A stretch of DNA of 62,614 nucleotides from Candidatus Sabulitectum sp. (GCA_029938555.1 JAOZUR010000009.1:1-62614); one strand, 5' to 3'. Counted from the first letter of the stretch, positions 17,556 through 53,797 are shown. Notes: generated from the sequence alone by a model not told the origin. Numbers and translations: made by a program.

Positions 17556-17557
17556 CC

Positions 17558-18439: not shown

Positions 18440-19062
18440 AATACGTTTTAATAGCATTCATGATAGCACTTTTTATGTTTTCAGGCTGTATTACTGTGAA
18501 TGTACCCTTGGGCGGGGGAGATTCCCAGCCATCATTTCAATGGCAGTTAAGATGGGACTCTCCTGTTGAGCATGGCAATCTGATATACAGTAATATTTTA
18601 AGAGTGCGAGACCTCGAAGCTTCCGGAAGTTATCAGCTCTCTGGAATGGTTGTTAGGCGTTCTGATGGTAGTATTACAGAAAGTTCATCAAATAGATGGG
18701 TTTCCAGACCAGGCGCAATGCTTGGTGAGCTTTTGTCTAGAGATCTCCAGGTAACAGGAAATTATCCGGCAATATTTAGAACAGCAGTTAGTGTAAATAA
18801 TGTGTTAACGGTAGAGGGTTATGTACGGGAATTTGGGGCGACTCAGGTAGATAGCACAACCTGGATTGCTGTTCTTGATGTTGATGTCACCCTTATGGGG
18901 ATTAGGGGTAACGAAGTTCTTTTGCAGCGTAATTACAGATATGAGAAAGAAATGCCCGAGACTGGTTTTCAAACCCTTGCTGATCAGATGTCATTATTAG
19001 GTCTTCAGTGGTCTGAAGCAGTGATGTCTGACATTGCAGCCATTCTTCAACCGCAAAGATAG
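18436..19062 (+). CDS. ABC-type transport auxiliary lipoprotein (PqiC/DUF330-like)
   Basis: ATGA overlap with the MlaD stop. Lipobox FMFSGC. Position and size match the auxiliary lipoprotein found in MCE operons. Confidence 0.55.
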   Translation: MKYVLIAFMIALFMFSGCITVNVPLGGGDSQPSFQWQLRWDSPVEHGNLIYSNILRVRDLEASGSYQLSGMVVRRSDGSITESSSNRWVSRPGAMLGELLSRDLQVTGNYPAIFRTAVSVNNVLTVEGYVREFGATQVDSTTWIAVLDVDVTLMGIRGNEVLLQRNYRYEKEMPETGFQTLADQMSLLGLQWSEAVMSDIAAILQPQR

Positions 19063-37027: not shown

Positions 37028-38278
37028 GTGAAGGTTATTCTGGCAGGTTACAATACAGATACTGAAAACAATTCAACAACACCGGAAACTATTTCTGCTG
37101 CGTATGCCAGAATAAGTCGTGACCCAGCTCCAATAACTGAACTTAGAAAGCAATCAGCTTCAGAGCTGGAACAGGCAAGAAAATCAAATAAAACTATTGT
37201 TTATAAATATGGACACGGCTCCATAGCTGAACATGCAGTTTTCAATTTTGATATTTTGGGAATATCAAGACTTGCAGCTGAAGCCATTCAATCATTCCGC
37301 CTTATCAGTTTTACAGAGAAATCACAGAGATACATCCGTATAGGAGAAGACTGGGTTCTACCACAAGAATTGAAACAGTATTCTTCTATACTCAGCGGTT
37401 TGTTTCAGAGTTATGAAGTTATTCTTTCAGCTCTGCTTAAGTCTGGTCTTTCTAAAACAGAGGCCAGGGAAGATGCCAGATATATACTTCCATTGGCAAC
37501 CACTACACAGATGGGCATGACTGTAAATGCAAGAGAGTTAGAGCATATTATCAGAAGAATGAAAGCCCATCCTTTAAAAGAGGTTTGTGACCTCGCTGAA
37601 GCTCTTTATCAGGCAGTTCTTCCCATAACTCCTTCTCTTATGCTTTTTACAGAACCTACAGAGATGGATAGAATTGCACATCTTCAACCAGCCCCTGTAA
37701 TGATAGCAGAAGAGGTGTCATTATTGAGCTGTGATTCGGATATCAGAATTGAAGAAATGCTTACTGAAATATTTGGGACACCCGATTTCAGCAGAATATA
37801 TAATCATCTTGGGATCCATGATGCTCTGCCACGACTCTGGGAGATGTTCAGGGCTGACTTTCGCCTAACAATGTCAGCAACAGCTTACGCCCAGATGAAA
37901 AGACACAGAATGAGTACTCAGTTAATATCTGTTTACGATCCTAAACTTGGGGTAACTGTGCCACCAAACATCAAAAAAGTAGGGTTAGAAGACTTTTTTG
38001 TGGATGAGTGTCTAAAGTCTTCAAACTGTGTTTCTGGCCAAGGTCGTATAGGTGAGTATCTTTTTACAAATGCTCATCGTCGTCAGATTCGACTTTGTAT
38101 TAATGGAAGAGAATTTAATCATTTCATTCGGTTACGAGATGATGACCATGCGCAATGGGACATTAGGAAAATAGCCGCAGACATGATTATCAAAGTCAGG
38201 GAAAAAGCCCCAATGACTGTAAAAATGACCTGCGGCAAATCTCACTGGCAGGAGGTTACCGGAAAGCTTGCTCAATAA
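37028..38278 (+). CDS. thyX: FAD-dependent thymidylate synthase ThyX-like protein, apparent tandem (two-module) form
   Basis: Module 1 has YGHGSIAEHAVFNFDILGISR...SFRLISFTEKSQRY...NARELEHIIRRM. Module 2 has YAQMKRHRMSTQ...NGREFNHFIRLRDDDHAQWDIRKIA. I prefer GTG 37028 with AAGGAG 6 nt upstream over the ORF-track start at 36929, which lies inside the GH84 gene. Confidence 0.7.
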   Translation: MKVILAGYNTDTENNSTTPETISAAYARISRDPAPITELRKQSASELEQARKSNKTIVYKYGHGSIAEHAVFNFDILGISRLAAEAIQSFRLISFTEKSQRYIRIGEDWVLPQELKQYSSILSGLFQSYEVILSALLKSGLSKTEAREDARYILPLATTTQMGMTVNARELEHIIRRMKAHPLKEVCDLAEALYQAVLPITPSLMLFTEPTEMDRIAHLQPAPVMIAEEVSLLSCDSDIRIEEMLTEIFGTPDFSRIYNHLGIHDALPRLWEMFRADFRLTMSATAYAQMKRHRMSTQLISVYDPKLGVTVPPNIKKVGLEDFFVDECLKSSNCVSGQGRIGEYLFTNAHRRQIRLCINGREFNHFIRLRDDDHAQWDIRKIAADMIIKVREKAPMTVKMTCGKSHWQEVTGKLAQ

Positions 38279-41090: not shown

Positions 41091-41575
41091 TTGATAAACT
41101 CCCAGTATATAATGAAAAATATTTATAGCTAGAAAATAATTCCATAAACCATTAAGGTCAAGCTTGGGTAATTGTGTTACAACGGCTATGATAAGAAACC
41201 CAGATAAGATAAAATATTTATGAAATGAATGTATACACAAGATAATATTGTTAAGAAAGTGTAAAAACAATAAATATTTAAAAGTTGAGTTTTTGAGGTC
41301 CCGTAGTTCAAGTGCTGATAATTATGATGAGTTATTGATAGGTTTAGCAATAATATTTAAATCATCATGAAATTATGTACATAAATCTACAAATAAGCAA
41401 TTCAAAGTAGAAAAGCATTAAATGCGTCAAAATCAAAAGAAACTGAATATAAATTCATACAAATGGAAAAAGTGTAATTTATTGTATAACTGTGATTTAG
41501 AAAGTTCAACTGAATTTAACAATATAATAGTATGGTACCGTGATTTATTGAAGTTATATTTGCATTTGATACAGC

Positions 41576-41604
41576 TTGACCATGAGACTATGAAGTGTGA
41601 TATT
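41576..41604 (+). promoter_or_regulatory. Candidate sigma-70 promoter of the TPR/ExbBD/TonB-like operon
   Basis: TTGACC (41576-41581), a 17-nt spacer, then GATATT (41599-41604). It lies inside a ~575-bp AT-rich non-coding region. Confidence 0.3.
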
Positions 41605-41666
41605 ACAGATAATAAAAAATTATGTTAGTTTAACTTTCGGACTTTTAGGGATTGAGAGGTTTTTAT

Positions 41667-42647
41667 ATGCGTTTTGTTTTTGTTGCTTTGCTAGCAGCTG
41701 TTTCTAGCGTTTTTGCAGGGTCACTTCCTTATGCTTATGGTGATGTTGTGAATGCACCGGATGCGTATGTTCTTGAGCATACAGAGGTTGAAGTTGGGTT
41801 AGCAGCTAGTGCCTTTTCTTTTGAAGACTCTCTTGGCGTTTCTGACAGTGATGTTAAATTAACTGGATACCTGAACTTAGGTATTTTAAGTTATGGTCAG
41901 CTGGGTGTATCATATCTTGCAGATGGCGGTATTGTGATAAATGCAAAAGTAGCAATACTAAAAGAAGGTATTGCGGTTCCAGCATTCTCGCTAGGCTTGC
42001 AGAATGGAATTGGGCTGAAAAATGTAGACTGTTTCTCGGGTACGGCAGGATCACCAGATTCAACTGGTTCATTTGCAGAAGGTTGGGATGAAGACGGAAT
42101 GTACGGTTACGGTCATTCTCAGAACTGGTCGGTTTATGGAGTTGGGTCTAAAGATATGCGTTATCTTTTAGGCATTCCAGTAACGGTAAATCTAGGCATT
42201 GGAATTGGTCGTTTTGTGGGTACTGTTGATAATGGCGGTGCTTTAGGAATCGGTAGCTCTATTGCTAATGGATTGTTTGGTTCCATGGTTTGGCAGCCAG
42301 GGGAAGACTTTTCTGTAGCGTTTGAAATGGATGGGCGTGATCTTAATCTTGGAATGAATTATGCCGTTGCAAAACACGTAGATCTGCATCTTGCATGGGG
42401 TGAATTAGAGCAGACAGTTTTTGCTTCAGAAAATCAAAACAAACAGGATGTTATGCAGAATTCTAAAGTAACAGTTGCAATTTCTTCACAATTCGGACCA
42501 TTGCTTGGCGCTGGTAGGCTTGAACTTGAAAGAGAGCAACAGCGTATAGAGCGGGCAAGAACTAGACTTGACGAGTTAGAAGCACGGCGTCGTTCTGCTG
42601 AATCAGAGCTGCAGAGGCTTCGTGATCTTCTTGACGAGAACAGGTAG
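41667..42647 (+). CDS. Secreted beta-rich protein (possible outer-membrane beta-barrel) with a C-terminal charged coiled coil
   Basis: Signal peptide MRFVFVALLAAVSSVFA. Alternating Gly/hydrophobic strands include VEVGLAASAFSF, GYLNLGILSYGQLGVSY and FSVAFEMDGRDLNLGMNY. The C-terminus is LELEREQQRIERARTRLDELEARRRSAESELQRLRDLLDENR. I prefer ATG 41667 with a GAGAGG RBS over TTG 41652. Confidence 0.5.
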   Translation: MRFVFVALLAAVSSVFAGSLPYAYGDVVNAPDAYVLEHTEVEVGLAASAFSFEDSLGVSDSDVKLTGYLNLGILSYGQLGVSYLADGGIVINAKVAILKEGIAVPAFSLGLQNGIGLKNVDCFSGTAGSPDSTGSFAEGWDEDGMYGYGHSQNWSVYGVGSKDMRYLLGIPVTVNLGIGIGRFVGTVDNGGALGIGSSIANGLFGSMVWQPGEDFSVAFEMDGRDLNLGMNYAVAKHVDLHLAWGELEQTVFASENQNKQDVMQNSKVTVAISSQFGPLLGAGRLELEREQQRIERARTRLDELEARRRSAESELQRLRDLLDENR

Positions 42648-42655
42648 GCTCAGTT

Positions 42656-45600
42656 ATGCGGATTTGTAAATCATCTAATCTTATCGTATTGCTTCTTCTG
42701 GTTTGTTTTATATCTGTTCACGCCCAAACCCCAGAAATAGAAACTGAGGTCAATGAAGAAATCAGTATAATCCTTAGAAGGGCACAGGAAGAGCTTGGAA
42801 CTTTAGAAACTCAGATAATGAGGGAAGAGGAAAGGCTTGCAAGGATAGAAGCTGAATTGATTCAACTTCGCAGGCAGCGTTCCATTTTATTTAGCGCACA
42901 GTCAGCATTTGAACTTGGCGAAGAACTTTATTCCACAGGTTCTATTGTTTGGGCAAGAGATGCTTTTGTTTCAGTAGTAGAAAATTTTTCAGACTCTGAC
43001 TATTACGATGCTGCACTGTTCAGACTTGAATTGATTTCTTTTGAGTTACAAAATTATGAAAATACAGTTACTTATTTCAATGAACTAAGAGCGGTTTCAC
43101 CTGGTTTTGAATATGCGGACATTTCTGTAATTGTTGGCGGTCTTGCTAAGTATCATATGGGTGAATTTGAAGAATCTCGTACAACACTTCAGCAGATTGC
43201 TGCTTCTAGCGAGCAGTCTTCACTTGCAGCGTATCTTATTGCTGTTACTTATGTTGCTCAGGATAATACACATGCAGCTATAACTGAATTACAAAAAGTA
43301 ATAGATAATGCAAGTAGAAGTGAAACTGGAATTGCTGACCGAGCAAGAATAGCTATTGCCCAGATTTATGTTGATGAAGAAGACCTAGATCGAGCAGTTG
43401 ATGAGTACCGAAGAGTTTCTCCTTTCAGTGCTTATTATGATGTTGCAATGCTCGGCCTTACTTGGACATATATGCGTCAGGAAGAATACCAGGATGCATA
43501 TAATCTTGCAGAAAAAGTTCTAGATGAAATTCCAGGAACCGAGTTGTTCAGTGAATTTGAATTAGCCATGGCAAATTGTGCCCTTGGTGCTCAGGATATT
43601 GATATCGCTATTACTATGTATAGGCAACTTATGTCTGACTATGGGGCAGGTGATAATTTATACGATACTTTCCGATCAGGAGAGGATGTAGAAAATCAAT
43701 ATGATTCTGAACGTGAGCGGCTTGATAGAATACGATTAGGACTTACTGAGTTAAAAGAAGAAGCTTATATGCAGGGCGATATGGAGCTTGTTGCTCTTAT
43801 CGAAGCGGAAGAAGCTTCTCTTCGTTCTCTTTTTGTTGATATTTCTGGATTTGAAGCAACCCTTTCTATGCCGGTGGGTATGGATTCTGAAACTATGCAA
43901 CAGCAGATGAATAATCTCATTTCAGCTTCTCGTGCAAGTTCTGAGCGATTGGCACTTGAAATAGAAAATACTCAGACTGTTGCTGATAATGCAGGTAGTG
44001 AAGCAGACAGGCAAGATCTGTTGCTTCTGGAAGCAGAGGTATCTAGAATTCGTCTTGCACTGCAGGATCTTGCCAGTAAAATGGACTCAGGTATGGCAGC
44101 TGATCATGATTGGATGCAGGAAACTCAGTATGGAATAGCAATAGCGACTTTTATTGAAAGAGAGCTAAAGAGAGATTCTTTAACTTATCTAGGTGCGTAT
44201 TACAATGCCAGAATTGCTGCACTCTATGTCGAGGGAGATACAGTTCGCGCGGAAGCACTTAGTACACTCAGGCGTGAGGAAACTAGTGCCCTTGGACGAA
44301 GGATTGATGAATCTGGTATAGCGTGTGCCACTTATTTCGAAGAATACCTTGCTCATTATCCCGAGAGCAGATTCACTGCTGATATTTATGTAAGACTTGC
44401 TCAGCTTTATTATGAGATAGATAAAAACACTCTGATTGATCTCCGAGAGTTAGCCGGCGGACAAGATTATATTCCTGCAGATTACTCTCGTACTATTAAC
44501 CTTTACCAAAGGGTTTTGAATCAGTATCCCAATAGTGAAGTAGAAGATATAGCGTTGTATTCTTTAGGATATGCTCTTAATGAAATGGGTGATCCTGATG
44601 GCTCAGTTGCCAGCTACAGACGACTTCTTGCTGAATTCCCAAACAGTTTACTGGCTCCGGAAACATACCTAAGAACCGGTGATTTTTACTTCGAAGCTTT
44701 TCAATACGATAGTGCTTATTTCTTTTACAACCAGATTCTTGATTATCCTGAATCCAATTCGACCCACTATCAATTTGGCATCTACAAACTCGGATGGACT
44801 GCCTATTTAATCAATGAGTACGAACACTCGATAGCTCTTTTCGGTTATCTTATACGAGACAGTCAAAGAATGGATGATCTAGGCCTTACGCGTATGACTG
44901 ATATGGTGTCTGAGGCTGTTGAATATCTTGCACATGATTTTATGGAACAAAATATTGGGCCACCTGTTTTATTAGCTACGAATTTTCTTGATGCTTTTGG
45001 GAACGAACAAGTATCTATTGATGTTCTTACTCAGATGGGTGATTCATATATTGAACAGGCTTACTGGCTTGAGTCCATTGAGGCTTATCAGGCTCTGCTT
45101 CAAAGAGATCCTTTTAATCAAATCGCACCGTTTATACAATCTCGAATTGCCGTTGCATACGAAGGTGTGGGCGATTATGCCAGTGCCACCCTTGCTCGCG
45201 AGCAACTCGTTGAGCGCTACGGCGCGCAAAGTGAATGGGCAACCATGTCTGGGGATTCAAGTCTATTTGCAGAAGTTGATTCTATTAGGGCTTCAGCGCT
45301 TGAAACTTCAATTGGGTATTACGGAGGTTTAATAGAAGCAGCTGGTGATGATACGCAACTGGCAGCTCAGAGTTATAGTGTTCTTATAGAAAAAATAGAA
45401 CTATATCTTGACGAGTATAGCGATTCAAGACAAGCATACGACTTACGCTTTCTATTAGGTGATTCTTATTACAATACAGGTAATCTCATGAAAGCTGGTG
45501 ATGTATACCTGCAGGTCGTGTATGACAGCACTTCGGCTCAGAGTAGGGAAAGTGCTGTAGGTAATGCGTTCAGTGCATATGGACAGGCTTATGACCAGGT

Positions 45601-47194
45601 TGGCTCTGACAGTCTTTTCCTCAGGGAGAAAATGCATGAGATAAGTACTTACTACGCAGACAATTTCCCATCAGGTGATTTTGTCGCACAGTTCTTGTTC
45701 AATGATGCTGGAAGTCATTATAATGCAGAGGATTATGCCACGGCAAGAGTTTCATATACTAGAATTTATAATGAATACCCCAGTTCCGAATATACAGCTC
45801 GCTCTGCTCGTTTCCTTGCTTCTGCATACGAAGCTGAGCAACAGTTCTCTGACGCAGAGCTATGGTATGGTCGTGCTGCCGATGTGGCAGCTGTTACAGG
45901 CGAAGAGTTGGATGGTGATATGTTAGCACTTGCTGCCGCAGTTTCTTACATGGATGCAGACGCACTTGCTCAGTCCGAAGACCCAGCTGCTCTAATTATA
46001 GCAGCAGCCAGATTTGAGGAATCAGCAAAAGCACACCCAGGTACTGAAGTGGCTCCAATATCATTCTATGATGCAGGAGAAACGTATGCAAAAGCAGGGG
46101 ATATAACTAATGCTATTAGAGTATTTACAGAACTTGCTAATACTTATCCGGAAACCCCACAGGCTCCTGAGGGTCTCATGCGTGCAGCGTTCCTAGCAAG
46201 AGAATCAGAACACTTTATTTTGGCAGGTGATACATATTTAGAAGCATATACCCGGTTCCCAAGTGCTGAAAATATGCATACTGCTTTATATAGTGCTGCA
46301 GTATCTTATGAAGATGGTGGCGCTGAAGGTTTGGCAATCGGAGTTTATAACAGGATCATTGATGAACAAGCAGCTTCTCCTGAAACCATGGTTACTGCAC
46401 TTCAAAAAACAGGAGATTATCTTTATAACTCTGGTGACTTCTTCGGAGCAAGAGAAAGGTATACAGCGTGTGTTGAAACTTTTGACATGTACCGAGAAGG
46501 TCCAGCCATTAATGCGGCAAAAAGCGCATTTCGTATTGGTGAAATAATTAGAAAATCTTTCGATGCAATGGTAGTAACAATGGATAATGTTGCTGAAAAA
46601 ACTCAGCTCAAAGGTGAGGTTGAATCTTGGTACGGACAATCTTTAGGTTATAATGTAGATGTATGGTTTATGGCATCGTGCGCAAGGGCAGGCGAATTAT
46701 ACGAGGACTATGCAAATTCAGTTTCTAATATGGATCCACCAGCAGGGATGTCTGATGAAGCAATGGATGAATTTTACAATACATTGTATTTCCAGGTTTA
46801 TGAACCAGAGATTCAGAAGGCTATTAACATTTATGTAATGGCGGTGGAAAAAGCTGTTTCTGCCAATGTAAGAAACGAATGGGTAACAGTTTCCGCAGAC
46901 AATCTTGAATTGCTTGCCCCTGGCATGGTTTCTACACTTGGTTTGCCTGGTTATGAAATTGAAGTATTTGTACCCGACCCCATTGTTGAAGCTGGTTCTG
47001 ATGGAACTGTAACTCAGGAAGATTCTGGTGAGCAATCATCACAAGATCCAGTAGTTGATGAGGCTAATACAGTTACAGAAGAGGAGCCCATAGTTGATGA
47101 AACCAATACAGTTACAGAAGAAGAGCCCATAGTTGATGAAACCAATACTGTTACAGAAGAAGATCCTGTAATTCCAGGGGAGGGTGGTCAGTGA
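42656..47194 (+). CDS. Giant (1512 aa) secreted/periplasmic TPR-repeat protein (BamD/CpoB-like TPR units)
   Basis: Signal peptide LIVLLLLVCFISVHA followed by an N-terminal coiled coil. A recurrent [FY]P-x-[ST]-x-...-A-x-[FY] unit appears as YPNSEVEDIALYSLGYA, FPNSLLAPETYLRTGDFY, YPSSEYTARSARFLASAY, YPETPQAPEGLMRAAF and FPSAENMHTALYSAAVSY. The tail is acidic and repetitive. Confidence 0.8.
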   Translation: MRICKSSNLIVLLLLVCFISVHAQTPEIETEVNEEISIILRRAQEELGTLETQIMREEERLARIEAELIQLRRQRSILFSAQSAFELGEELYSTGSIVWARDAFVSVVENFSDSDYYDAALFRLELISFELQNYENTVTYFNELRAVSPGFEYADISVIVGGLAKYHMGEFEESRTTLQQIAASSEQSSLAAYLIAVTYVAQDNTHAAITELQKVIDNASRSETGIADRARIAIAQIYVDEEDLDRAVDEYRRVSPFSAYYDVAMLGLTWTYMRQEEYQDAYNLAEKVLDEIPGTELFSEFELAMANCALGAQDIDIAITMYRQLMSDYGAGDNLYDTFRSGEDVENQYDSERERLDRIRLGLTELKEEAYMQGDMELVALIEAEEASLRSLFVDISGFEATLSMPVGMDSETMQQQMNNLISASRASSERLALEIENTQTVADNAGSEADRQDLLLLEAEVSRIRLALQDLASKMDSGMAADHDWMQETQYGIAIATFIERELKRDSLTYLGAYYNARIAALYVEGDTVRAEALSTLRREETSALGRRIDESGIACATYFEEYLAHYPESRFTADIYVRLAQLYYEIDKNTLIDLRELAGGQDYIPADYSRTINLYQRVLNQYPNSEVEDIALYSLGYALNEMGDPDGSVASYRRLLAEFPNSLLAPETYLRTGDFYFEAFQYDSAYFFYNQILDYPESNSTHYQFGIYKLGWTAYLINEYEHSIALFGYLIRDSQRMDDLGLTRMTDMVSEAVEYLAHDFMEQNIGPPVLLATNFLDAFGNEQVSIDVLTQMGDSYIEQAYWLESIEAYQALLQRDPFNQIAPFIQSRIAVAYEGVGDYASATLAREQLVERYGAQSEWATMSGDSSLFAEVDSIRASALETSIGYYGGLIEAAGDDTQLAAQSYSVLIEKIELYLDEYSDSRQAYDLRFLLGDSYYNTGNLMKAGDVYLQVVYDSTSAQSRESAVGNAFSAYGQAYDQVGSDSLFLREKMHEISTYYADNFPSGDFVAQFLFNDAGSHYNAEDYATARVSYTRIYNEYPSSEYTARSARFLASAYEAEQQFSDAELWYGRAADVAAVTGEELDGDMLALAAAVSYMDADALAQSEDPAALIIAAARFEESAKAHPGTEVAPISFYDAGETYAKAGDITNAIRVFTELANTYPETPQAPEGLMRAAFLARESEHFILAGDTYLEAYTRFPSAENMHTALYSAAVSYEDGGAEGLAIGVYNRIIDEQAASPETMVTALQKTGDYLYNSGDFFGARERYTACVETFDMYREGPAINAAKSAFRIGEIIRKSFDAMVVTMDNVAEKTQLKGEVESWYGQSLGYNVDVWFMASCARAGELYEDYANSVSNMDPPAGMSDEAMDEFYNTLYFQVYEPEIQKAINIYVMAVEKAVSANVRNEWVTVSADNLELLAPGMVSTLGLPGYEIEVFVPDPIVEAGSDGTVTQEDSGEQSSQDPVVDEANTVTEEEPIVDETNTVTEEEPIVDETNTVTEEDPVIPGEGGQ
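47051..47167 (+). repeat. Three tandem 39-bp in-frame repeats at the 3' end of the TPR gene
   Basis: Units at 47051-47089, 47090-47128 and 47129-47167 encode VVDEANTVTEEEP, IVDETNTVTEEEP and IVDETNTVTEEDP. Units 2 and 3 differ at only four nucleotide positions. Confidence 0.95.
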
Positions 47195-47625
47195 AACTAA
47201 TACTAGTCACGACTTTTTTAATTCTACTGAGTACTTCCTCTTTCGGGCAGGGTGCCTCTATGGAGGGTGGTCGGTTGATTCTAGAAGAGATAACAATTCA
47301 AGGTGAGTTGCGAGCTCCTCAGGCTTTGTTTCTTATGCTGAAATCAGTTCCAGATTTAAGTAATGTTTTGTTGGAAAGAAGCTTTCTTGAAGATGTTGTG
47401 AGACCAATTTACCCAGGAGCTTTTGCAACCGAAACTAGTTTTTCTTTAGCGGCAAGGGAATCGAATGCGATGCCCATGTATATTCGCTATGGAACTGTAG
47501 GTATATTAGGAAGCCTTAGCGCTTGGAAATATATAGAAGGAGATGAAAATACTGGAATGACTTTTGCTATAATGGCAGGACTGGATTTAGTAGGTAATTT
47601 GTTGTATGACTTAATAGGTCAATAA
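47191..47625 (+). CDS. Small secreted/membrane-anchored hypothetical protein (144 aa)
   Basis: The GTG start overlaps the TPR gene stop (GTGA). Signal peptide MKLILVTTFLILLSTSSFGQG. C-terminal hydrophobic helix MTFAIMAGLDLVGNLLYDLIG. Confidence 0.5.
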   Translation: MKLILVTTFLILLSTSSFGQGASMEGGRLILEEITIQGELRAPQALFLMLKSVPDLSNVLLERSFLEDVVRPIYPGAFATETSFSLAARESNAMPMYIRYGTVGILGSLSAWKYIEGDENTGMTFAIMAGLDLVGNLLYDLIGQ

Positions 47626-47657
47626 AGTATATCACGGTTTTAGAGAGGAGTCCTTAG

Positions 47658-48524
47658 ATGGCTAAAAAAATGTTTCCTTTAATGCTAGCTCTTTTGATTT
47701 TTGTATTTTCTGGTTCTGTATTTGCACAGGATGCAGCAGATGGAACTGATACCACAACCGTTGCAGAAGGTGATTCGGCAGTTGTTACAGATTCTACTTT
47801 AGTTGATACAGCAGCAGTTGTTGACGATACAGAACTTGAAGACGAGATGGAAGCCACTGAAGAAGAAGCAGAAGAAGAAGTTAAACTCAGTTTCTTTGCA
47901 GCATTTGCTAAATTCTTCCGTGAAGGTGGAGCAGCAATGCCTTTCATTCTCTTCTTCTTTGCAGTTGGTTTGGTAATCTTTGTTGAAAGAATAATTTTCC
48001 TTTTTGGAACAGCAAGTGCAAAACCGGAAGCTTTAATGGCTAAGATCGCCTCTCTTATTCGTAAAGGAAGCATTGAAGGAGCTATTGCAGCCACTAGTGA
48101 AGAAAAATCGCCACTTTCCAAAATTGTCGAGGCTGCTTTAAGAAATTATAAAGGAACTGAGCGTGATATACAAAATGCCGTTGATGAAATGGCTCTTGCT
48201 GAACTTCCTAGAATAAACGCTAGAATTGGTTACCTTGGCATGCTTGCAAACGTTTCTACAATGGTAGGACTGTTGGGAACTATTTTCGGATTGATTGCAG
48301 CTTTCGCTGCGGTTGCAGCTGCCGATCCAGAGCAAAAAGGTGTCCTTCTTGCAAACGGTATTTCCATGGCAATGAATACAACTGCATTTGGTCTAATCGC
48401 CGCAATTCCAATGCTTGTAGCCCATTCAGTTCTAACAGCCAAAGCAGACAGCCTTGTTGATGACATAGATCGCTATAGCGTTATGGTTATGAATATGCTC
48501 GCACAGGCCAGAAGGGAAGCCTAA
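47658..48524 (+). CDS. MotA/TolQ/ExbB-family proton channel with a signal peptide and an acidic N-terminal extension
   Basis: The core reads GYLGMLANVSTMVGLLGTIFGLIAAF...LANGISMAMNTTAFGLIAAIPMLVAHSVL. The N-terminus has signal-like MFPLMLALLIFVFSGSVFA followed by a T/D/E-rich stretch of about 55 aa. Confidence 0.9.
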   Translation: MAKKMFPLMLALLIFVFSGSVFAQDAADGTDTTTVAEGDSAVVTDSTLVDTAAVVDDTELEDEMEATEEEAEEEVKLSFFAAFAKFFREGGAAMPFILFFFAVGLVIFVERIIFLFGTASAKPEALMAKIASLIRKGSIEGAIAATSEEKSPLSKIVEAALRNYKGTERDIQNAVDEMALAELPRINARIGYLGMLANVSTMVGLLGTIFGLIAAFAAVAAADPEQKGVLLANGISMAMNTTAFGLIAAIPMLVAHSVLTAKADSLVDDIDRYSVMVMNMLAQARREA

Positions 48525-49084
48525 TGGCAAAGGCAGCGTCCGGGCGAAGCAGAAAAATAAAACATGATCCGGAAATTGATCTTCTTCCGGTAATGAATTT
48601 ATTCTGTTGTATAATCCCGTTCTTACTGTTCAGTGCTACATTTCTGGAAGTAGTTGTAATTGAAATGGCTTCCACTGAAGGTATTAGTAATAATGGAGCT
48701 GGTGCTACGGCTAACCTTATGCGTTCAGAGGAAGACAGATTGCAGCCTAAAATAATCATAACAGAGCAGGAAATGTTTATTGGTACAGTAGGTGGAACTA
48801 TTCATGTAGGTTATGCTTTTGATTTAGATATGGATGGAGAAACTGTAGTTACTTTTCCTTGGGATTCTCTGTCAATTAAATTAACAGAAGCTCATGATTT
48901 TTTGTCTGAAACTTACCCGCAAATCGATTTTCATAAAATTACTGTTTTAACCGTTGAAGAAACGCGTTATGATAATATTATTAGCGCAATTGATATTGCG
49001 ATTGCCACAGGTTTTGATCAACCAGGACTTCAAGTTGCACCAACTGCTTTAGTGAATTCTGCCATGGCTGGAGGTGGTAACTGA
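48524..49084 (+). CDS. ExbD/TolR-family protein, divergent paralog with Asn at the conserved TM Asp position
   Basis: TAATG overlap with the channel gene. The TM segment EIDLLPVMNLFCCIIPFLLF aligns on the conserved Pro with E. coli ExbD INVTPFIDVMLVLLIIFM, which puts N where D25 sits. The periplasmic domain is longer. Confidence 0.7.
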   Translation: MAKAASGRSRKIKHDPEIDLLPVMNLFCCIIPFLLFSATFLEVVVIEMASTEGISNNGAGATANLMRSEEDRLQPKIIITEQEMFIGTVGGTIHVGYAFDLDMDGETVVTFPWDSLSIKLTEAHDFLSETYPQIDFHKITVLTVEETRYDNIISAIDIAIATGFDQPGLQVAPTALVNSAMAGGGN

Positions 49085-49626
49085 TGGGAGCACCCTCTAA
49101 ACGACATGTTCCGGTGATACTTGGTTCCGGAAAATCTATGGCTGTTTCGCGAGGTGGAGACAAAAAAGTAACACTAAATCTAACATCTATGATTGATATG
49201 TTTACAATTTTGCTCGTTTTTCTTTTGAAAAGCTACTCTGCTGATGGTCAGATGGTAACTGTTAGCGATCAGCTCGTTTTGCCTAAGGCAGAGATTGAGC
49301 AGAAGGTTGAACTTAAGTTGGAAATACAAGTCAATAATTCTGTAATTATTGTTGATGGAGACCCTGTGGTGACTGTAACTCCAGAACTTCTTAGTTCTGG
49401 AAACTCGATTCCCGTTCTTGTTACTAGACTTCGTGATCATTTGGAATACTCCAGACAATCTAGAGGTACACTTACTGAGGATGACATGAAAGTCAATATC
49501 CAGGGAGATGTGGGTATGCCGGCAATTCTTCTGCAACGCGTGATGGCAAGTTGCTCAGAAGCTGGTTATTCCGGGCAAAACCTGGCTGTGATTAAGCTCG
49601 TCCCCAGCGAAGGTGGTGAAAACTGA
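49084..49626 (+). CDS. ExbD/TolR-family protein (canonical TM Asp present)
   Basis: TGATG overlap with the preceding gene. LNLTSMIDMFTILLVFLL matches the ExbD/TolR TM signature, including the Asp. Confidence 0.85.
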   Translation: MGAPSKRHVPVILGSGKSMAVSRGGDKKVTLNLTSMIDMFTILLVFLLKSYSADGQMVTVSDQLVLPKAEIEQKVELKLEIQVNNSVIIVDGDPVVTVTPELLSSGNSIPVLVTRLRDHLEYSRQSRGTLTEDDMKVNIQGDVGMPAILLQRVMASCSEAGYSGQNLAVIKLVPSEGGEN

Positions 49627-51479
49627 TGGCAGACAATAAGAAAAAGATACTTGCAATTGCAGCCATGCGAGATGGTAAAGTTGTTACAAAATTGCTTCCT
49701 GGAGATAAAGCAATCACTATAGGAGCAGGATACAATAATAATATCTCGGTTGAAGCTCCTGGAATGCCTGATTCTATTGTACTGATAAAGCAAGTTCCAG
49801 ATTCTGATACTTGGGATTTGACTTTAACAGATACAATGGATGCACAAATTACTTCTAGCAATGGCTCGAAGATGCAATTCAGCGATCTTAAAGGGCTGGG
49901 AATATTCAATACAGATGAAGATGGTAATTTTGTATTGAAGGTAAATTATGGAGACCAGGGTGTTGTTAATGCAGGACCATTTGTTGTTCATTTCGGTTTT
50001 ATTGACCCTCCCAAAGTCGCAGCCAAAAAAACAGCTCCTAAAAAGAAAGTTGTTAAAAAGGTAGAAGAAGCTGTTGTTGTTCCTGATAAAAGAATGCTAA
50101 AGTTAAGTATTGAAGACTCGTCAGGTAGAAGAGATATTTTCCCTAATGCAGGCATTATGACAATTGGGCAGGCAGAGTACAATACTATCTCTGTCAAGAA
50201 CAATAAATTGCCCAGAATACATACACTTCTTGAACCATCAGATAATAATAAATATATTCTCAGGCTTGTCCCTGAAATCAAAGGTGGGGTCGAGGTTAAA
50301 GGTAGTGTAATTCCTTTTTCAACCCTAATTGAACGAAACCTTTTAAAGCAGGAAAAACCGGGGGATCCTTTTATTTGGATTTTTGACAGAAATGTTTCTG
50401 GTGTTTTTACTTTAGCAAATACTGAAGTATTCTTTAGCTTTGCAGAGCCTCCAGCCGAATTTTTTAAACCAAAACCTAAGCCAGTTGTAAAAAAAGTAAA
50501 ACTCAAACCTTCTGTTTACAATTGGAAAAGTTTTGCAGCAAGGCCGCATGAGTTACTTTCATTTAACTCTGAAAATTCGGAAAACGCACGATTTAAAATG
50601 TTTTTAGGAATTGGTCTAGCTGCTGCTCTTTTGATGGGTGCGGTTACCGATAGATTAATTGTGGTTGTTAAGGAATCAAAAACGCAGATGCTTAGAAATG
50701 CACCAAGCGCTAGAGCTGTTCAACTTGCAGAAACTCCTCCTGCTTCCGAAGCAGGAATGGGAGAGGAAATTGTAAGTGATGTGCCTGTAGCCGAAATTGC
50801 AAATACCGGTGGAGCCACATCTGGTGCTTCTGAAGCTCCTGCCGGCGGTGGAGCTGCAGAAGGAGCAAGCGCAGCGAATGATGTATTAAGTAGCATTGGT
50901 TTTGCTGCTTATGGTACAGGTTCTGCAGGTGGTGGTGCAGGTTTTATTGGTGATCTACAAAGTGCTGCTTCATCTGGAACAGGACTGGCCTCGGGGCAAA
51001 GCGGAGAAGCTTTGATTGCTGGTGCCGGCTCTGGTGGCTCTGGCGGTATTGGTGGCCTTGCCGGTGCCGGTGGTGGAGTTGCTGCTTCAGCAGGTACAGT
51101 TAGTGCTAGTGATATGCAGGCTGTACATCAGGCTGCTCAGGTCACATTCACTCCAAGTGCTCCTCAAGAGGCTCTTGATCTTGCAGGAAGAGATATGAGT
51201 TCCATTAGACGCAAAATTAATCAGATCAAAATGCGCGTGCAATCTGCTTATGAAGGTCTACTTAGGAATGATCCAGGTGCAAGTGGAACTATTACAATTA
51301 GTTTCTCTATCACACCAAGTGGTTCAGTTACAGGTGTTTCAGTCAGTTGCCCAGGGTCTTTAGCTGGGTTGCAGGGTTCAGTAACTGCTGCTGTCAATTC
51401 ATTGAATTTTGGTTCTGCTCCTCAGCAGACCAGTAACATACCGGTATCAGTTCCGTTTAACTTGGTACCGCCTCAGTAG
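49626..51479 (+). CDS. TonB-C / AgmX-PglI-like C-terminal domain protein with two N-terminal FHA-like modules, one TM helix and a Gly/Ala/Ser-rich spacer
   Basis: TGATG overlap with the preceding gene. The duplicated modules end in VVHFGFIDPP+KVAAKKTAPKKKVVKKV and VFFSFAEPP+AEFFKPKPKPVVKKVKLKP. The TM helix is FKMFLGIGLAAALLMGAVTDRLIVV. The C-terminus is VQSAYEGLLRNDPGASGTITISFSITPSGSVTGVSV...VNSLNFG...VSVPFNL. Confidence 0.7.
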   Translation: MADNKKKILAIAAMRDGKVVTKLLPGDKAITIGAGYNNNISVEAPGMPDSIVLIKQVPDSDTWDLTLTDTMDAQITSSNGSKMQFSDLKGLGIFNTDEDGNFVLKVNYGDQGVVNAGPFVVHFGFIDPPKVAAKKTAPKKKVVKKVEEAVVVPDKRMLKLSIEDSSGRRDIFPNAGIMTIGQAEYNTISVKNNKLPRIHTLLEPSDNNKYILRLVPEIKGGVEVKGSVIPFSTLIERNLLKQEKPGDPFIWIFDRNVSGVFTLANTEVFFSFAEPPAEFFKPKPKPVVKKVKLKPSVYNWKSFAARPHELLSFNSENSENARFKMFLGIGLAAALLMGAVTDRLIVVVKESKTQMLRNAPSARAVQLAETPPASEAGMGEEIVSDVPVAEIANTGGATSGASEAPAGGGAAEGASAANDVLSSIGFAAYGTGSAGGGAGFIGDLQSAASSGTGLASGQSGEALIAGAGSGGSGGIGGLAGAGGGVAASAGTVSASDMQAVHQAAQVTFTPSAPQEALDLAGRDMSSIRRKINQIKMRVQSAYEGLLRNDPGASGTITISFSITPSGSVTGVSVSCPGSLAGLQGSVTAAVNSLNFGSAPQQTSNIPVSVPFNLVPPQ

Positions 51480-51493
51480 TAAAGAATAACTTG

Positions 51494-51514
51494 CAGGGAA
51501 GTTTTACTTCCCTG
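51494..51514 (+). terminator. Hairpin immediately downstream of the operon
   Basis: A 9-bp stem pairs cagggaagt with acttccctg around a 3-nt loop, 15 nt after the stop codon. Confidence 0.5.
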
Positions 51515-51525
51515 TGGTAATCTAT

Positions 51526-51560
51526 AAAAAAGAGCCGCAGGACATCCTGCGGCTCTTTTT
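51526..51560. terminator. Bidirectional rho-independent terminator (operon end / groEL end)
   Basis: An 11-bp stem pairs agagccgcagg with cctgcggctct around the loop acat. It is flanked by A5 on the 5' side and T5 on the 3' side. Confidence 0.85.
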
Positions 51561-53654: not shown

Positions 53655-53797
53655 GAGTATTTCTTAGGACAAGTGAGGTAATTTGCATAATTAGATGTGT
53701 GTGCCAGTTTGACGCATAAGTAAAGTCGTGTATGGATTCTCAGTTTAATATATTCCAGCATCATGATTATTTTGAATACATAAACTGGGAGGTGGCA

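What the first reader, a model, noticed from the sequence alone, without database searches (positions are those of the whole stretch)
41091..51560. Seven-gene envelope-spanning proton-motive-force motor operon resembling the Agl-Glt/Nfs core rather than Tol-Pal or a plain Ton system
Seen directly:
- A ~575-bp AT-rich gene-free region precedes seven co-directional genes (41667-51479).
- The gene junctions are gaps of 8 and 32 nt plus four start/stop overlaps: GTGA at 47191, TAATG at 48524, and TGATG at 49084 and 49626.
- Two hairpin terminators close the unit.

Products in order:
1. A signal-peptide beta-strand-rich protein ending in a charged coiled coil.
2. A 1512-aa signal-peptide protein made of BamD/CpoB-type TPR units with an N-terminal coiled coil.
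3. A 144-aa signal-peptide protein with a C-terminal hydrophobic helix.
4. A MotA/TolQ/ExbB channel.
5. An ExbD/TolR paralog.
6. A second ExbD/TolR paralog.
7. A 617-aa protein with FHA-like modules, one TM helix and a TonB-C/AgmX-PglI-like C-terminal domain.

No TolB propeller, Pal/OmpA-like lipoprotein or TonB-dependent receptor is adjacent, which argues against Tol-Pal or a simple Ton cluster. From memory of the Myxococcus literature, this parts list matches the conserved core of the Agl-Glt gliding and Nfs spore-coat machines. That core combines a TolQ/TolR-like motor (AglR, AglQ, AglS), large periplasmic TPR proteins (GltD/GltE), a small GltF-like protein and the FHA-TonB-like GltG/PglI. 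It has been reported to occur outside myxobacteria, including Fibrobacteres, with unknown function there. In a T9SS-bearing organism this could be an uncharacterised PMF-powered surface-transport or envelope-remodelling machine.
Basis: partly seen in the sequence, partly recalled or inferred. Interest (0 to 1): 0.75.

Follow-up and report, generated by a model that had tools for sequence, protein, structure and literature searches.

The report
Glt-type envelope motor operon, Fermentibacterota
This seven-gene operon is the Fermentibacterota version of the proton-driven, envelope-spanning "Agl-Glt core" machine best known from Myxococcus gliding; it is conserved across this non-motile candidate phylum and many related phyla, and what it does there is still unknown.

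Summary
Seven co-directional, tightly coupled genes (41667-51479) follow a 576-bp, 26% GC spacer and end at two strong hairpins.

Profiles built from the Fermentibacterota proteins hit, gene for gene and in the same order, the Glt-like clusters of Myxococcota. These include the Myxococcus MXAN_1919-1923 type. The same order appears in about 70 further loci from Fibrobacterota, KSB1, Calditrichota, Gemmatimonadota and others.

- g1 is a roughly 12-stranded outer-membrane barrel with a C-terminal helix. It is not part of the published core.
- g2 is a fusion of GltC-like and GltD-like TPR proteins.
- g3 carries the GltF motif.
- g4 is an AglR-type channel, 42-45% identical to the Glt-cluster channels against about 34% over 92 residues to TolQ.
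- g5 and g6 are one-to-one orthologues of the two cluster TolR paralogues. g5 has Asn in place of the proton-carrying Asp; g6 keeps the Asp.
- g7 has two FHA folds, a transmembrane helix, a linker and an AgmX/PglI-type TonB-like domain, as in GltG.

GltE is absent. This is a new variant of a known kind. Its output is unknown, and I could not check the whole genome for Tol-Pal or Ton systems.

The parts
41091..41666 (.). AT-rich divergent intergenic region, presumed promoter region for the operon and for the divergent FG-GAP gene
   Evidence: 576 bp at 26% GC against 41.5% for the operon. Several sigma-70-like hexamer pairs lie here but are not enriched over shuffles. No promoter was demonstrated.
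41667..42647 (+). g1: signal-peptide outer-membrane beta-barrel (about 12 strands) ending in a conserved 40-residue charged helix, which I infer to be periplasmic
   Evidence: AF2 model with pLDDT 72 and pTM 0.65: 12 strands plus helix 282-324. Foldseek hits are all outer-membrane barrels; the best TM-scores are to the 12-stranded FapF, COG4313, KdgM and NanC. Conserved in all Fermentibacterota loci. Homologues sit next to the cluster in the L146 lineage (E = 5e-57) and in Gemmatimonadota L175 (E = 3e-35), where Pfam YjbH scores 27 bits. KSB1 and Calditrichota ORFs in the same position are only weakly related (hhalign probability 60%).
42656..47194 (+). g2: 1512-aa secreted TPR scaffold. It has an N-terminal coiled coil, a GltC-like segment (about residues 80-350) and a GltD-like body (about 516-1425), ending in a variable acidic tail
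   Evidence: TPR_6, YbgF and BamD hits. The profile aligns along the whole GltD-like proteins of Myxococcota (E = 1e-76 to 1e-107) and of KSB1/Calditrichota (to 1e-111). Its N-terminal part aligns to the preceding GltC-like gene. In the L146 lineage and in KSB1/Calditrichota the two parts are separate genes. The signal peptidase I site is conserved and no lipobox Cys is conserved.
47191..47625 (+). g3: 144-aa secreted GltF-family protein with an added C-terminal hydrophobic helical segment
   Evidence: The g3 profile hits 82-120-aa signal-peptide ORFs at the GltF position in about 45 Myxococcota loci (best E = 1e-8), sharing the motif (K/R)(V/L)I.LE.IT(I/V).G.(I/L)..PQA. The reciprocal Myxococcota profile hits only g3 among 321 window ORFs (E = 2e-8). 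No Pfam or NCBIfam hit.
47658..48524 (+). g4: AglR-type MotA/TolQ/ExbB proton channel with a signal peptide and an acidic N-terminal extension
   Evidence: PF01618, E = 3e-25. 42-45% identity over about 202 aa to Glt-cluster channels, against 34% over 92 aa to E. coli TolQ and 40% over 68 aa to ExbB. PDB TolQ E about 5e-11 and ExbB 5e-9. The equivalents of TolQ T145 and T178 are kept.
48524..49084 (+). g5: first TolR/ExbD paralogue (Q position). The transmembrane Asp is replaced by Asn
   Evidence: PF02472, E = 6.5e-6. It matches only the first ExbD-like gene in 35 of 38 Myxococcota clusters. PVMNLF is invariant in Fermentibacterota. Asn occupies this site in 67 of 71 loci from other phyla.
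49084..49626 (+). g6: second TolR/ExbD paralogue (S position). It keeps the transmembrane Asp that aligns with TolR D23
   Evidence: PF02472, E = 2.7e-12. One-to-one match to the second paralogue. The MIDMF motif aligns with TolR D23 and ExbD D25.
49626..51479 (+). g7: GltG-type transducer. It has two cytoplasmic FHA-fold domains (8-126 and 157-273), a TM helix (317-340), a Gly-rich linker with invariant motifs, and an AgmX/PglI-type TonB/TolA-like C-terminal domain (505-614)
   Evidence: AF2 model. Foldseek top hits are FHA domains at probability 1.0, with TolA-C (1tol) and H. pylori TonB-CTD (6sly) for the C-terminus. NF033768 scores 43 bits against a cutoff of 40, and Pfam TonB_C 30.2 against 24.6. 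Its profile retrieves Myxococcota GltG-like proteins that score 88-208 bits on the GltG model.
51493..51560 (.). Two stem-loops (51493-51515 and 51527-51560) between convergent g7 and groEL. They are likely a bidirectional terminator
   Evidence: MFE -42.8 kcal/mol, z = -9.4, with 0 of 200 shuffles as stable. Sequence.
38256..41090 (-). Conserved divergent neighbour and possible partner or cargo (not shown to be part of the unit): a secreted or anchored protein of about 944 aa with an FG-GAP beta-propeller and five Asp-box beta-sandwich repeats
   Evidence: FG-GAP_3 and beta-propeller hits. Present at this position in all Fermentibacterota loci (39-74% identity). A similar propeller protein lies 1-1.6 kb downstream of the GltG-like gene in 5 Myxococcota loci (E = 1e-24 to 1e-41).

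Best explanation
The operon encodes the Fermentibacterota form of the Agl-Glt 'core complex', a proton-motive-force-driven machine of the Tol/Ton/Agl class that spans the cell envelope.

Shown by computation:
- Every gene except g1 has a positional orthologue in Glt-like clusters of Myxococcota and of many FCB-group phyla.
- g4 is an AglR-type channel that keeps the channel threonines.
- g5 and g6 are two anciently diverged TolR-like subunits. Only g6 keeps the protonatable transmembrane Asp.
- g7 has the GltG architecture: FHA, FHA, TM helix, linker and AgmX/PglI-type TonB-like domain.
- g2 is a fused GltC/GltD scaffold.
- g3 is a GltF-family protein.
- g1 is an outer-membrane barrel with a C-terminal helix.

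Inferred by analogy with TolQRA, ExbBD-TonB and the published AlphaFold model of Agl-Glt:
- Five g4 subunits surround a g5-g6 heterodimer.
- Proton flow through the single g6 Asp drives conformational work or rotation.
- That work passes to the g7 TM helix, which is held by its membrane-proximal FHA domain.
- The conserved g7 linker and C-terminal domain dock on the g2 scaffold under the outer membrane, with g3 acting as a clamp.
- g2 is tethered to the g1 barrel through pairing of the g1 C-terminal helix with the g2 N-terminal coiled coil.

The output is mechanical work on an outer-membrane platform. The cluster is universal in a phylum described as non-motile and sits among housekeeping genes. 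I therefore think its role is more likely envelope maintenance or transport of a surface polymer or protein than gliding. The conserved neighbouring FG-GAP protein is a candidate partner. The output itself is not shown.
For: Operon structure and terminators.

Phylum-wide synteny: about 58 species-level genomes, with all roughly 45 loci that have enough flank being complete.

Matches of Fermentibacterota profiles to Myxococcota loci:
- g2 to the GltD-like protein, E to 1e-107, along its whole length.
- g4 to the channel, E to 1e-62.
- g5 and g6 each only to the first and second ExbD-like gene respectively, in 35 of 38 loci.
- g7 to the GltG-like protein, E to 1e-25.
- g3 to the GltF-position ORFs.

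Link to the literature: locus L133 of Myxococcus sp. Y35 has gene sizes of 809, 1112, 91 and 447 aa. These match three of the four corresponding MXAN_1923-1919 gene sizes exactly and the fourth within one residue (809, 1111, 91 and 447), which Luciano et al. list as Glt homologues.

g7 fold and family.

Asp-to-Asn asymmetry of the ExbD pair across phyla. Channel threonines kept. Closer to Glt-cluster channels than to TolQ or ExbB.

The same cluster in Fibrobacterota, KSB1, Calditrichota, Gemmatimonadota and others.

g1 barrel model and its homologues next to the cluster in other lineages.

Published structural model of GltG, GltD, GltF, GltC and AglR5QS: PMC11761067.
Against: - No function is known for any non-myxobacterial core complex, so the output is conjecture.
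- GltE and the myxobacterial outer-membrane and cytoplasmic parts (GltA/B/H/K, CglB, GltI/J) were not found in the cluster.
- g7 scores only 54 bits on the GltG equivalog model, whose cutoff is 650.
- The GltC-like assignment of the g2 N-terminus rests on TPR-to-TPR similarity, which is easily inflated.
- The stator placement used only E. coli and PDB TolQ/ExbB as outgroups, not a sampled phylogeny.
- Stoichiometry and all contacts (g1-g2 coiled coil, g7-g2, g3 clamp) are inferred. I could not run multimer modelling.
- I could not check whether these genomes also carry Tol-Pal or a separate Ton system. A published genome description of Ca. Sabulitectum silens simply calls a 'tonB/exbBD' system active.
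Confidence: 0.8

Rival explanations
1. It is the functional replacement for Tol-Pal in this phylum. On this reading it is a housekeeping proton-driven system that tethers and constricts the outer membrane during division and maintains envelope integrity. g1 would play the Pal/TolB-side anchor and g2 the CpoB-like TPR role. This concerns the biological role and is compatible with Glt-core ancestry.
For: Universal conservation across the phylum, next to groESL and other housekeeping genes. The organisms are described as non-motile or non-flagellated. The g2 repeats score on the YbgF/CpoB model (TIGR02795, 153 bits over 6 stretches). g4 is nearer to TolQ than to ExbB among solved and curated models. 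No canonical Tol-Pal genes lie in the window.
Against: No TolB or Pal counterpart is present. The TIGR tolQ score of 70 is far below its cutoff of 221. YbgF-type hits are generic TPR_6 repeats. Absence of canonical Tol-Pal elsewhere in these genomes was not tested. Several phyla with the same cluster, such as gammaproteobacteria, also have Tol-Pal; that point is from general knowledge.
Confidence: 0.2
2. It is a gliding or surface-translocation motor of the Myxococcus type. The machine would move an outer-membrane-linked adhesin, for example the conserved neighbouring FG-GAP/Asp-box protein, along the cell surface.
For: Homology to the Agl-Glt and Nfs machines. g7 has the long, FHA-bearing form otherwise seen in myxobacterial GltG. 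An FG-GAP propeller protein is a conserved neighbour here and in 5 Myxococcota loci.
Against: Luciano et al. argue that the core alone is insufficient for motility and occurs in non-gliding bacteria. GltA/B/H/K, CglB, GltI/J and the AglZ/MglA-type parts were not seen. Fermentibacteria are inferred to be non-motile. The FG-GAP link is positional only and rare among Myxococcota (5 of 80 loci).
Confidence: 0.1
3. It is an ordinary Ton system (ExbB, ExbD, ExbD, TonB plus accessory TPR proteins) that energises TonB-dependent outer-membrane receptors. Genome annotations and one paper treat it this way.
For: Pfam TonB_C passes its cutoff for g7 (30.2 against 24.6), and MotA_ExbB and ExbD hits are present. 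Source annotations read 'TonB family protein' and 'biopolymer transport protein ExbB'. Saad et al. describe an active tonB/exbBD system in Ca. Sabulitectum silens.
Against: Gene-for-gene collinearity with Glt-like clusters, including GltD-like and GltF-like genes. g7 has two FHA domains and an AgmX/PglI-type domain, and TIGR01352 tonB_Cterm is below its cutoff (23.4 against 27.1). The exbB equivalog scores 49 against a cutoff of 206. g4 is 42-45% identical to Glt-cluster channels, against 40% over only 68 residues to ExbB. No TonB-dependent receptor lies in the window or in the flanks of about 60 relatives.
Confidence: 0.05

Closest known systems
Agl-Glt 'core complex' (Group B genes gltC, gltD, gltE, gltG, aglR, aglQ, aglS clustered in one locus; Luciano et al. 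2011, PLoS Genet, PMC3169522), including Fibrobacter succinogenes Fisuc_1892-1897 and the Myxococcus paralogous cluster MXAN_1919-1923
   Same: The gene order matches: TPR (C), giant TPR (D), small protein, channel (R), two TolR-like genes (Q, S), TonB-like transducer (G). Profiles match for D, R, Q, S, G and the small protein. The function outside Myxococcota is unknown in both cases.
   Different: The C-like and D-like genes are fused into one 1512-aa protein. No GltE is present. An outer-membrane barrel with a C-terminal helix (g1) leads the operon. g7 is the long form with two FHA folds (617 aa), whereas the GltG homologues listed for F. succinogenes, Methylibium and Cellvibrio are 308-371 aa. 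g3 has an extra hydrophobic C-terminus. The cluster is universal in an uncultured FCB-group phylum in which, as far as I could find, it had not been reported.
Myxococcus xanthus Agl-Glt gliding machine and the Agl-Nfs spore-coat machine
   Same: An AglR5-AglQ-AglS-type stator. GltG with FHA domains, a TM helix near residue 330, a disordered linker and a TonB-like C-terminal domain. GltD as the central periplasmic TPR pillar. GltF as a small bridging protein (PMC11761067, compared).
   Different: The myxobacterial-specific modules were not found in the cluster: the outer-membrane proteins GltA/B/H/K, the adhesins CglB/CglD, cytoplasmic GltI/GltJ and the AglZ/MglA/MreB platform. g7 reaches only 54 bits on the GltG equivalog model (cutoff 650). 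The organisms are inferred to be non-motile and non-sporulating.
Tol-Pal system (TolQ-TolR-TolA-TolB-Pal-CpoB)
   Same: A stator of the 5:2 class with conserved channel threonines and a TolR-type Asp. A TolA-like transducer with a TM helix, a long linker and a TolA/TonB-fold C-terminal domain. A YbgF/CpoB-type TPR partner.
   Different: No TolB or Pal. Two different TolR paralogues, one lacking the Asp. FHA domains on the transducer. A giant scaffold of about 1500 aa instead of the 263-aa CpoB. The tolQ equivalog score is far below its cutoff (70 against 221).
ExbB-ExbD-TonB (Ton) system
   Same: MotA_ExbB, ExbD and TonB_C Pfam domains. A long ExbB-like N-terminal signal peptide and extension.
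   Different: No TonB-dependent receptor nearby. The C-terminal domain is of the AgmX/PglI type. Equivalog scores for ExbB and TonB are below their cutoffs. Homology is stronger and covers the full length with Glt-cluster proteins.

Membership tests
Agl-Glt core complex (Luciano 2011, Group B cluster) | An AglR-type MotA/TolQ/ExbB channel encoded in the cluster, closer to Glt-cluster channels than to TolQ or ExbB | tested here: met
   42-45% identity over about 202 aa and 140-159 bits to 38 Myxococcota cluster channels, against 56 bits for TolQ and 49 for ExbB. All 38 prefer g4 reciprocally. PDB TolQ and ExbB match only over about 90 residues. Outgroup sampling is thin.
Agl-Glt core complex (Luciano 2011, Group B cluster) | Two distinct TolR/ExbD paralogues (Q and S) following the channel gene | tested here: met
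   The g5 and g6 profiles each match only the first or the second paralogue in 35 of 38 Myxococcota loci. They share the asymmetry of Asn in the first and Asp in the second. Mapping to the names AglQ and AglS of M. xanthus itself was not tested, because those sequences were not in hand.
Agl-Glt core complex (Luciano 2011, Group B cluster) | A GltG-type transducer: single TM helix, long linker and an AgmX/PglI-type TonB-like C-terminal domain | tested here: met
   NF033768 at 43 bits against a cutoff of 40. AF2 and Foldseek architecture. The profile retrieves Myxococcota GltG-like proteins.
Agl-Glt core complex (Luciano 2011, Group B cluster) | A GltD-type giant periplasmic TPR protein | tested here: met
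   g2 profile positions 516-1425 align to residues 62-1095 of the GltD-like ORFs, with E = 1e-76 to 1e-111.
Agl-Glt core complex (Luciano 2011, Group B cluster) | A GltC-type TPR protein | tested here: inconclusive
   g2 positions of about 80-350 match the GltC-like gene that precedes GltD-like (E to 1e-19 in Myxococcota and 1e-26 in KSB1). The two parts are separate genes in the L146 lineage. TPR-to-TPR similarity is not specific.
Agl-Glt core complex (Luciano 2011, Group B cluster) | A GltE-type TPR protein | tested here: not met
   There is no separate TPR gene between g2 and g3, and no part of g2 matches the Myxococcota E-position ORFs. Fibrobacter succinogenes also has no GltE listed.
Agl-Glt core complex (Luciano 2011, Group B cluster) | All components clustered and collinear in one locus | tested here: met
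   The same order is seen in Myxococcota loci and in about 70 loci from 8 or more phylum-level labels.
GltF family (MXAN_4868-like small periplasmic proteins) | A small signal-peptide protein with the conserved N-terminal motif, encoded between the TPR genes and the stator or GltG genes | tested here: met
   Profile hits at the syntenic position in about 45 Myxococcota loci. The reciprocal hit is unique in the window (E = 2e-8). Direct comparison with M. xanthus GltF itself was not done; the link is through the MXAN_1920-type paralogue listed by Luciano.
M. xanthus GltG (NCBIfam equivalog NF033760) | Whole-protein score at or above the curated cutoff | tested here: not met
   54 bits against a cutoff of 650. 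g7 is GltG-like in architecture but is not an equivalog.
Complete Myxococcus gliding (Agl-Glt) or Nfs machine | The outer-membrane module GltA/B/H/K plus an adhesin, and the cytoplasmic platform GltI/GltJ/AglZ/MglA | not tested
   None is encoded in the operon or the window according to Pfam. No reference sequences or whole genome were available for a real search.
Tol-Pal system | TolB and Pal encoded with TolQRA, and TolQ/TolR equivalog-level similarity | tested here: not met
   No PD40/TolB or OmpA/Pal domain in the window. TIGR02796 tolQ scores 70 against a cutoff of 221.
Ton system | ExbB, ExbD and TonB at equivalog or subfamily level, with a functional link to TonB-dependent receptors | tested here: not met
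   TIGR02797 exbB scores 49 against 206, and TIGR01352 tonB_Cterm 23.4 against 27.1. No receptor is in the window. Only the broad Pfam TonB_C domain passes. The genome-wide receptor inventory could not be tested with these tools.

The most novel reading that the evidence does not exclude
The Glt-type core is not a myxobacterial invention passed sideways to a few bacteria. On this reading it is an ancient, vertically inherited housekeeping machine of the FCB superphylum, found in Fermentibacterota, KSB1, Calditrichota, Gemmatimonadota and Fibrobacterota. Its native form would include a YjbH-like outer-membrane barrel tethered by a coiled coil to the GltC/D scaffold. It would use a single-Asp heterodimeric stator to power export or organisation of a surface polymer or protein, or to substitute for Tol-Pal. 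Gliding and spore-coat assembly in Myxococcus would then be later elaborations of this function.
Probability: 0.25. Interest if true: 0.75.

Novelty: new variant of a known kind. Interest (0 to 1): 0.5.

Why it matters
What the Agl-Glt core complex does in bacteria that do not glide has been an open question since 2011.

This locus shows that the core is universal in a whole candidate phylum of anaerobic fermenters inferred to be non-motile. Related clusters turn out to be common across FCB-group phyla. Three further points follow from the comparison:
- GltF-like proteins belong to the widespread set, rather than being restricted to Myxococcales and Bdellovibrio.
- The stator axle is a conserved heterodimer with one protonatable Asp.
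- A dedicated outer-membrane barrel accompanies the cluster in several lineages.

Together these argue for an ancestral envelope function. They also point to cultured organisms where that function could be tested, such as Fibrobacter, Gemmatimonas and Calditrichota.

In practical terms, these genes should not be annotated as a Ton uptake system in Fermentibacteria genome reconstructions.

Tried and rejected
- **Protein searches with g7, g4 and g1.** They returned only Fermentibacterota in the listed hits, so they gave no cross-phylum information.
- **The search for related loci with a six-sequence Myxococcota alignment.** It failed because no stretch was conserved enough. A three-sequence alignment worked.
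- **The ~925-aa proteins with three FHA-like domains (P0254, P0267, P0291).** They have no relatives in the species-representative genomes. The context of P0267 shows only G-R-Q-S without TPR genes.
- **Search for a second Ton or Tol system through short proteins carrying the g7 C-terminal domain (P0245, P0249).** The contexts were unrelated: FGE-sulfatase neighbours and short contigs.
- **Supplement of the Hyd24-12 genome paper.** It is not held, so I obtained no published Tol/Ton inventory.
- **hhalign of g1 against the N-terminal beta-rich domain of Fibrobacterota GltC-like proteins.** Negative, with probability below 2%. The idea that this domain is a fused g1 homologue is not supported by sequence.
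- **CglD 'integrin-like' adhesin paper.** I checked it for a link to the FG-GAP neighbour and found no FG-GAP or propeller there.
- **PDB sequence search with g7.** It gave only marginal hits, so fold comparison was needed.
- **A lipoprotein reading of g2.** Rejected: the Cys in the signal peptide is not conserved, while an A-x-A|Q signal peptidase I site is.
- **Naming g5 as AglQ and g6 as AglS.** I considered this and did not adopt it. From memory, the classic motor-dead allele is AglQ D28N, which would not fit an Asn-bearing Q-position paralogue.

Full report
**1. Observation**

The junctions are gaps of 8 and 32 nt and overlaps of GTGA, TAATG, TGATG and TGATG.

The spacer 41091-41666 is 576 bp at 26% GC, against 41.5% for the operon. 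It separates g1 from a divergently transcribed gene.

Two stem-loops follow the g7 stop codon, at 51493-51515 and 51527-51560. Together they fold at -42.8 kcal/mol, z = -9.4 against shuffles. They sit between convergent g7 and groEL. The simple terminator scan missed them.

Domain scans confirm the product descriptions:
- g2 has TPR_6, YbgF and BamD-type repeats.
- g4 is MotA_ExbB, E = 3e-25.
- g5 and g6 are ExbD.
- g7 has TonB_C and the NCBIfam AgmX/PglI C-terminal domain, at 43 bits against a cutoff of 40.

g1 and g3 have no library match above threshold.

Pfam scans of nearly all other large ORFs in the window show housekeeping genes, an Mla system and several type IX secretion cargo proteins. 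They show no TolB, Pal/OmpA or TonB-dependent receptor.

**2. Organism and conservation**

The closest relatives of g7, g4 and g1 are all from Candidatus Fermentibacterota (Sabulitectum, Fermentibacter, Aegiribacteria), down to about 48% identity.

A scan of one genome per species found g7 orthologues in 60 loci from about 58 genomes, all Fermentibacterota. tblastn of the window proteins against these loci shows the same order and spacing wherever enough flank exists, which is about 45 loci. The divergent FG-GAP gene is included, and groEL is usually next.

Genes 1-3 are therefore co-conserved with genes 4-7.

**3. What g7 is**

An AlphaFold model built from 22 orthologues gives five elements:
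- two beta-sandwich domains, residues 8-126 and 157-273, at pLDDT 80-88;
- a TM helix, residues 317-340;
- a low-confidence linker;
- a C-terminal alpha/beta domain, residues 505-614.

Foldseek against the PDB ranks FHA domains first, at probability 1.0. It finds TolA-C (1tol) and H. pylori TonB-CTD (6sly) for the C-terminus.

This is the architecture published for M. xanthus GltG: an N-terminal FHA, a central FHA, a TM helix at 330-348, a disordered segment at 371-494 and a TonB-like C-terminal domain (PMC11761067).

The linker is not featureless. It carries invariant motifs such as IGFAAYGTG and GGSGG. In the published model the equivalent GltG segment wraps a groove of GltD.

**4. Homology to Glt-like clusters**

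An exhaustive profile search with g7 found 905 proteins at E of 1e-3 or better. Beyond the phylum these are mainly 430-500-aa proteins. They score 88-208 bits on the NCBIfam GltG model, over the central FHA, TM helix and C-terminal domain, and 59-112 bits on the AgmX/PglI domain.

Their genes lie in 80 loci, all Myxococcota. Profiles built from the Fermentibacterota orthologues were searched against all ORFs of these loci, with these results:
- **g2.** Its profile aligns over nearly the full length of an ORF of about 1110-1250 aa, with E = 1e-76 to 1e-107.
- **g2 N-terminus.** It matches the preceding TPR ORF of about 780 aa.
- **g3.** It hits a small signal-peptide ORF at the GltF position.
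- **g4.** It hits a 216-233-aa channel, with E to 1e-62.
- **g5 and g6.** Each hits only the first and only the second ExbD-like gene respectively, in 35 of 38 loci.
- **g7.** It hits the GltG-like gene.

Locus L133 (Myxococcus sp. Y35) has gene sizes of 809, 1112, 91 and 447 aa. These match three of the four corresponding MXAN_1923-1919 gene sizes exactly and the fourth within one residue (809, 1111, 91 and 447). Luciano et al. list that cluster among the Glt homologues. This ties my loci to the published family.

A Myxococcota GltF-like profile hits only g3 among 321 window ORFs, at E = 2e-8. The shared motif is plain by eye.

**5. The stator**

g4 is 42-45% identical over about 202 residues to the cluster channels. 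By contrast it is 34% identical over 92 residues to E. coli TolQ and 40% over 68 residues to ExbB. All 38 Myxococcota channels prefer g4 reciprocally. Solved TolQ and ExbB structures match only over about 90 residues. g4 keeps the equivalents of TolQ T145 and T178.

g6 keeps the transmembrane Asp that aligns with TolR D23 and ExbD D25. g5 has Asn there in every Fermentibacterota sequence. The first-position paralogue has Asn in most Myxococcota loci and in 67 of 71 loci from other phyla.

The Asp count for the second paralogue in the other phyla is not independent evidence. The search pattern that retrieved those loci required it.

I infer a 5:1:1 stator with a single protonatable residue. I did not map g5 and g6 to the names AglQ and AglS.

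**6. Distribution and the ancestral layout**

A scan with the S-type ExbD motif matched at least 599 places, of which 496 were confirmed. The 80 loci kept come from Fibrobacterota, KSB1, Calditrichota, Gemmatimonadota, 'Cytophagia', Deferribacteres-labelled and Desulfobacterota MAGs, Alcanivorax and Agitococcus.

Nearly all of them show the order C-like, D-like, channel, Q, S, G, often with a GltF-like small gene.

The best g2 matches outside the phylum are in KSB1 and Calditrichota. There a C-like gene of 450-476 aa precedes a D-like gene of 953-991 aa (E to 1e-111).

A divergent lineage, L146/L149-L151, is labelled Desulfuromonas or Desulfuromonadaceae but has 40.6% GC and a GroEL 69% identical to the window's. 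It has the whole cluster, including g1 and g3 homologues, with g2 as two ORFs. The Fermentibacterota g2 is therefore a C-D fusion.

GltG homologues elsewhere are mostly 315-480 aa. The form with two FHA domains is shared only with the L146 lineage.

**7. g1**

The AF2 model (pLDDT 72, pTM 0.65) has 12 strands and a C-terminal helix at 282-324. Foldseek hits are all outer-membrane barrels, best by TM-score to the 12-stranded FapF, COG4313, KdgM and NanC. With an even number of strands the helix should be periplasmic; this is an inference.

Homologues lie next to the cluster in two other lineages:
- The L146 lineage, at E = 5e-57.
- Gemmatimonadota L175, at E = 3e-35. That protein also passes the Pfam YjbH threshold.

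In KSB1 and Calditrichota, ORFs of the same length and position, also with a charged C-terminal helix, are only weakly related: hmmsearch E = 0.013 and hhalign probability 60%.

The g1 helix and the conserved N-terminal coiled coil of g2 are both heptad-patterned and highly charged. I propose that they pair, but I did not test this.

**8. Mechanism and role**

By analogy with TolQRA, ExbBD-TonB and the published Agl-Glt model, I infer the following chain:
- Proton flow through g4(5)-g5-g6 drives g7.
- g7 acts on the g2 scaffold held under the outer membrane by g1.
- g3 bridges the g7 C-terminal domain and the scaffold.

The output is unknown. Three facts bear on it. The cluster is conserved across the whole phylum. 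Fermentibacteria are inferred to be non-flagellated or non-motile. The neighbouring genes are housekeeping genes. These incline me toward an envelope-maintenance or surface-transport role rather than gliding.

A published description of Ca. Sabulitectum silens mentions an active 'tonB/exbBD' system. It probably refers to this operon, although I could not confirm that.

**9. Limits**

- No whole-genome inventory of Tol-Pal, Ton or receptor genes.
- No sampled stator phylogeny.
- No multimer models.
- No direct comparison with M. xanthus AglRQS or GltA-K sequences.
- The GltC-like call rests on TPR similarity.

**10. Verdict**

This is a new variant of a known but functionally unexplained family. 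Interest is moderate.

Noticed in passing
window 38256-41090 (-); also L094, L108, L120, L126 and L130 at about 12400-18500: The divergently transcribed neighbour encodes a protein of about 944 aa with an FG-GAP beta-propeller and five Asp-box (SxDxGxxW) beta-sandwich repeats. It is conserved at this position in all Fermentibacterota loci. A similar propeller protein lies just downstream of the GltG-like gene in 5 of 80 Myxococcota loci. It may be a partner or cargo of the machine.
   Followed up: partly
L147 8001-9938 (protein P0248): A 645-aa protein fuses a TIR domain, a TM helix, TPRs, a segment resembling the C-terminal domain of g2 and a clearly related copy of the g7 C-terminal domain. 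It sits in an island of TIR-domain genes and Mu/IS21 transposases. The fusion hints that the g2 C-terminus and the g7 C-terminal domain work together, and that these parts are reused in what may be a defence context.
   Followed up: partly
protein P0243 (Logan contig of 3987 bp; no locus fetched): A 758-aa protein fuses a Ser/Thr kinase, a TM helix, a g5-like periplasmic domain and the g7 linker plus C-terminal domain. This is curious because g7 carries FHA folds, which classically bind phosphothreonine.
   Followed up: no
L146 and L149-L151 (LKUE01000281.1 and two other MAGs): Three MAGs labelled Desulfuromonas sp. SDB or Desulfuromonadaceae carry a divergent but complete copy of the cluster, with g1 and g3 homologues. 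L146 has 40.6% GC and a GroEL 69% identical to the window's. The taxonomic label looks doubtful. In L146 the g2 equivalent is split into ORFs of 548 and 976 aa by an in-frame stop followed directly by an ATG.
   Followed up: partly
L153, L155, L156, L159, L160, L164, L187, L193, L211 and L220, at about 2100-4700: In Fibrobacterota the GltC-like protein (about 800-830 aa) starts with a beta-rich domain of about 400 residues (GGYDAPYFQADF...NPALLYRVNQ) ahead of the TPRs. It looks like a fused membrane-barrel domain. It shows no sequence similarity to g1.
   Followed up: partly
window about 47040-47190 (g2 C-terminus); Aegiribacteria-type loci such as L037, L041 and L052: g2 ends in three tandem copies of an acidic 13-residue unit (TVTEEEPIVDETN). 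The tail varies between genera, but Aegiribacteria-type orthologues all end in GGGCFLWPF. That looks like a sorting or anchoring signal.
   Followed up: no
window 4949-7462 (+) and 27088-32047 (-): Four proteins carry the type IX secretion C-terminal sorting domain: a C25-like peptidase, a CotH kinase with a lamin-tail domain, a beta-helix protein and one protein of unknown function.
   Followed up: no
window 15712-19062 (+): An Mla-type lipid-transport operon (MlaE, an ABC ATPase, MlaD and an auxiliary lipoprotein). This is consistent with a diderm envelope.
   Followed up: no
window 3414-4946 (+) and 53732-55294 (+): Two paralogous aromatic amino-acid/histidine ammonia-lyase genes lie in one 62-kb window. 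One sits beside a formiminotransferase-cyclodeaminase gene (34094-35785), which suggests histidine degradation.
   Followed up: no
L148 10001-14928 (protein P0267): A 925-aa GltG-like protein with three FHA-like modules and an internal multi-TM block is followed directly by the channel and two ExbD-like genes. No TPR genes are nearby. It has no relatives in the species-representative genomes.
   Followed up: partly
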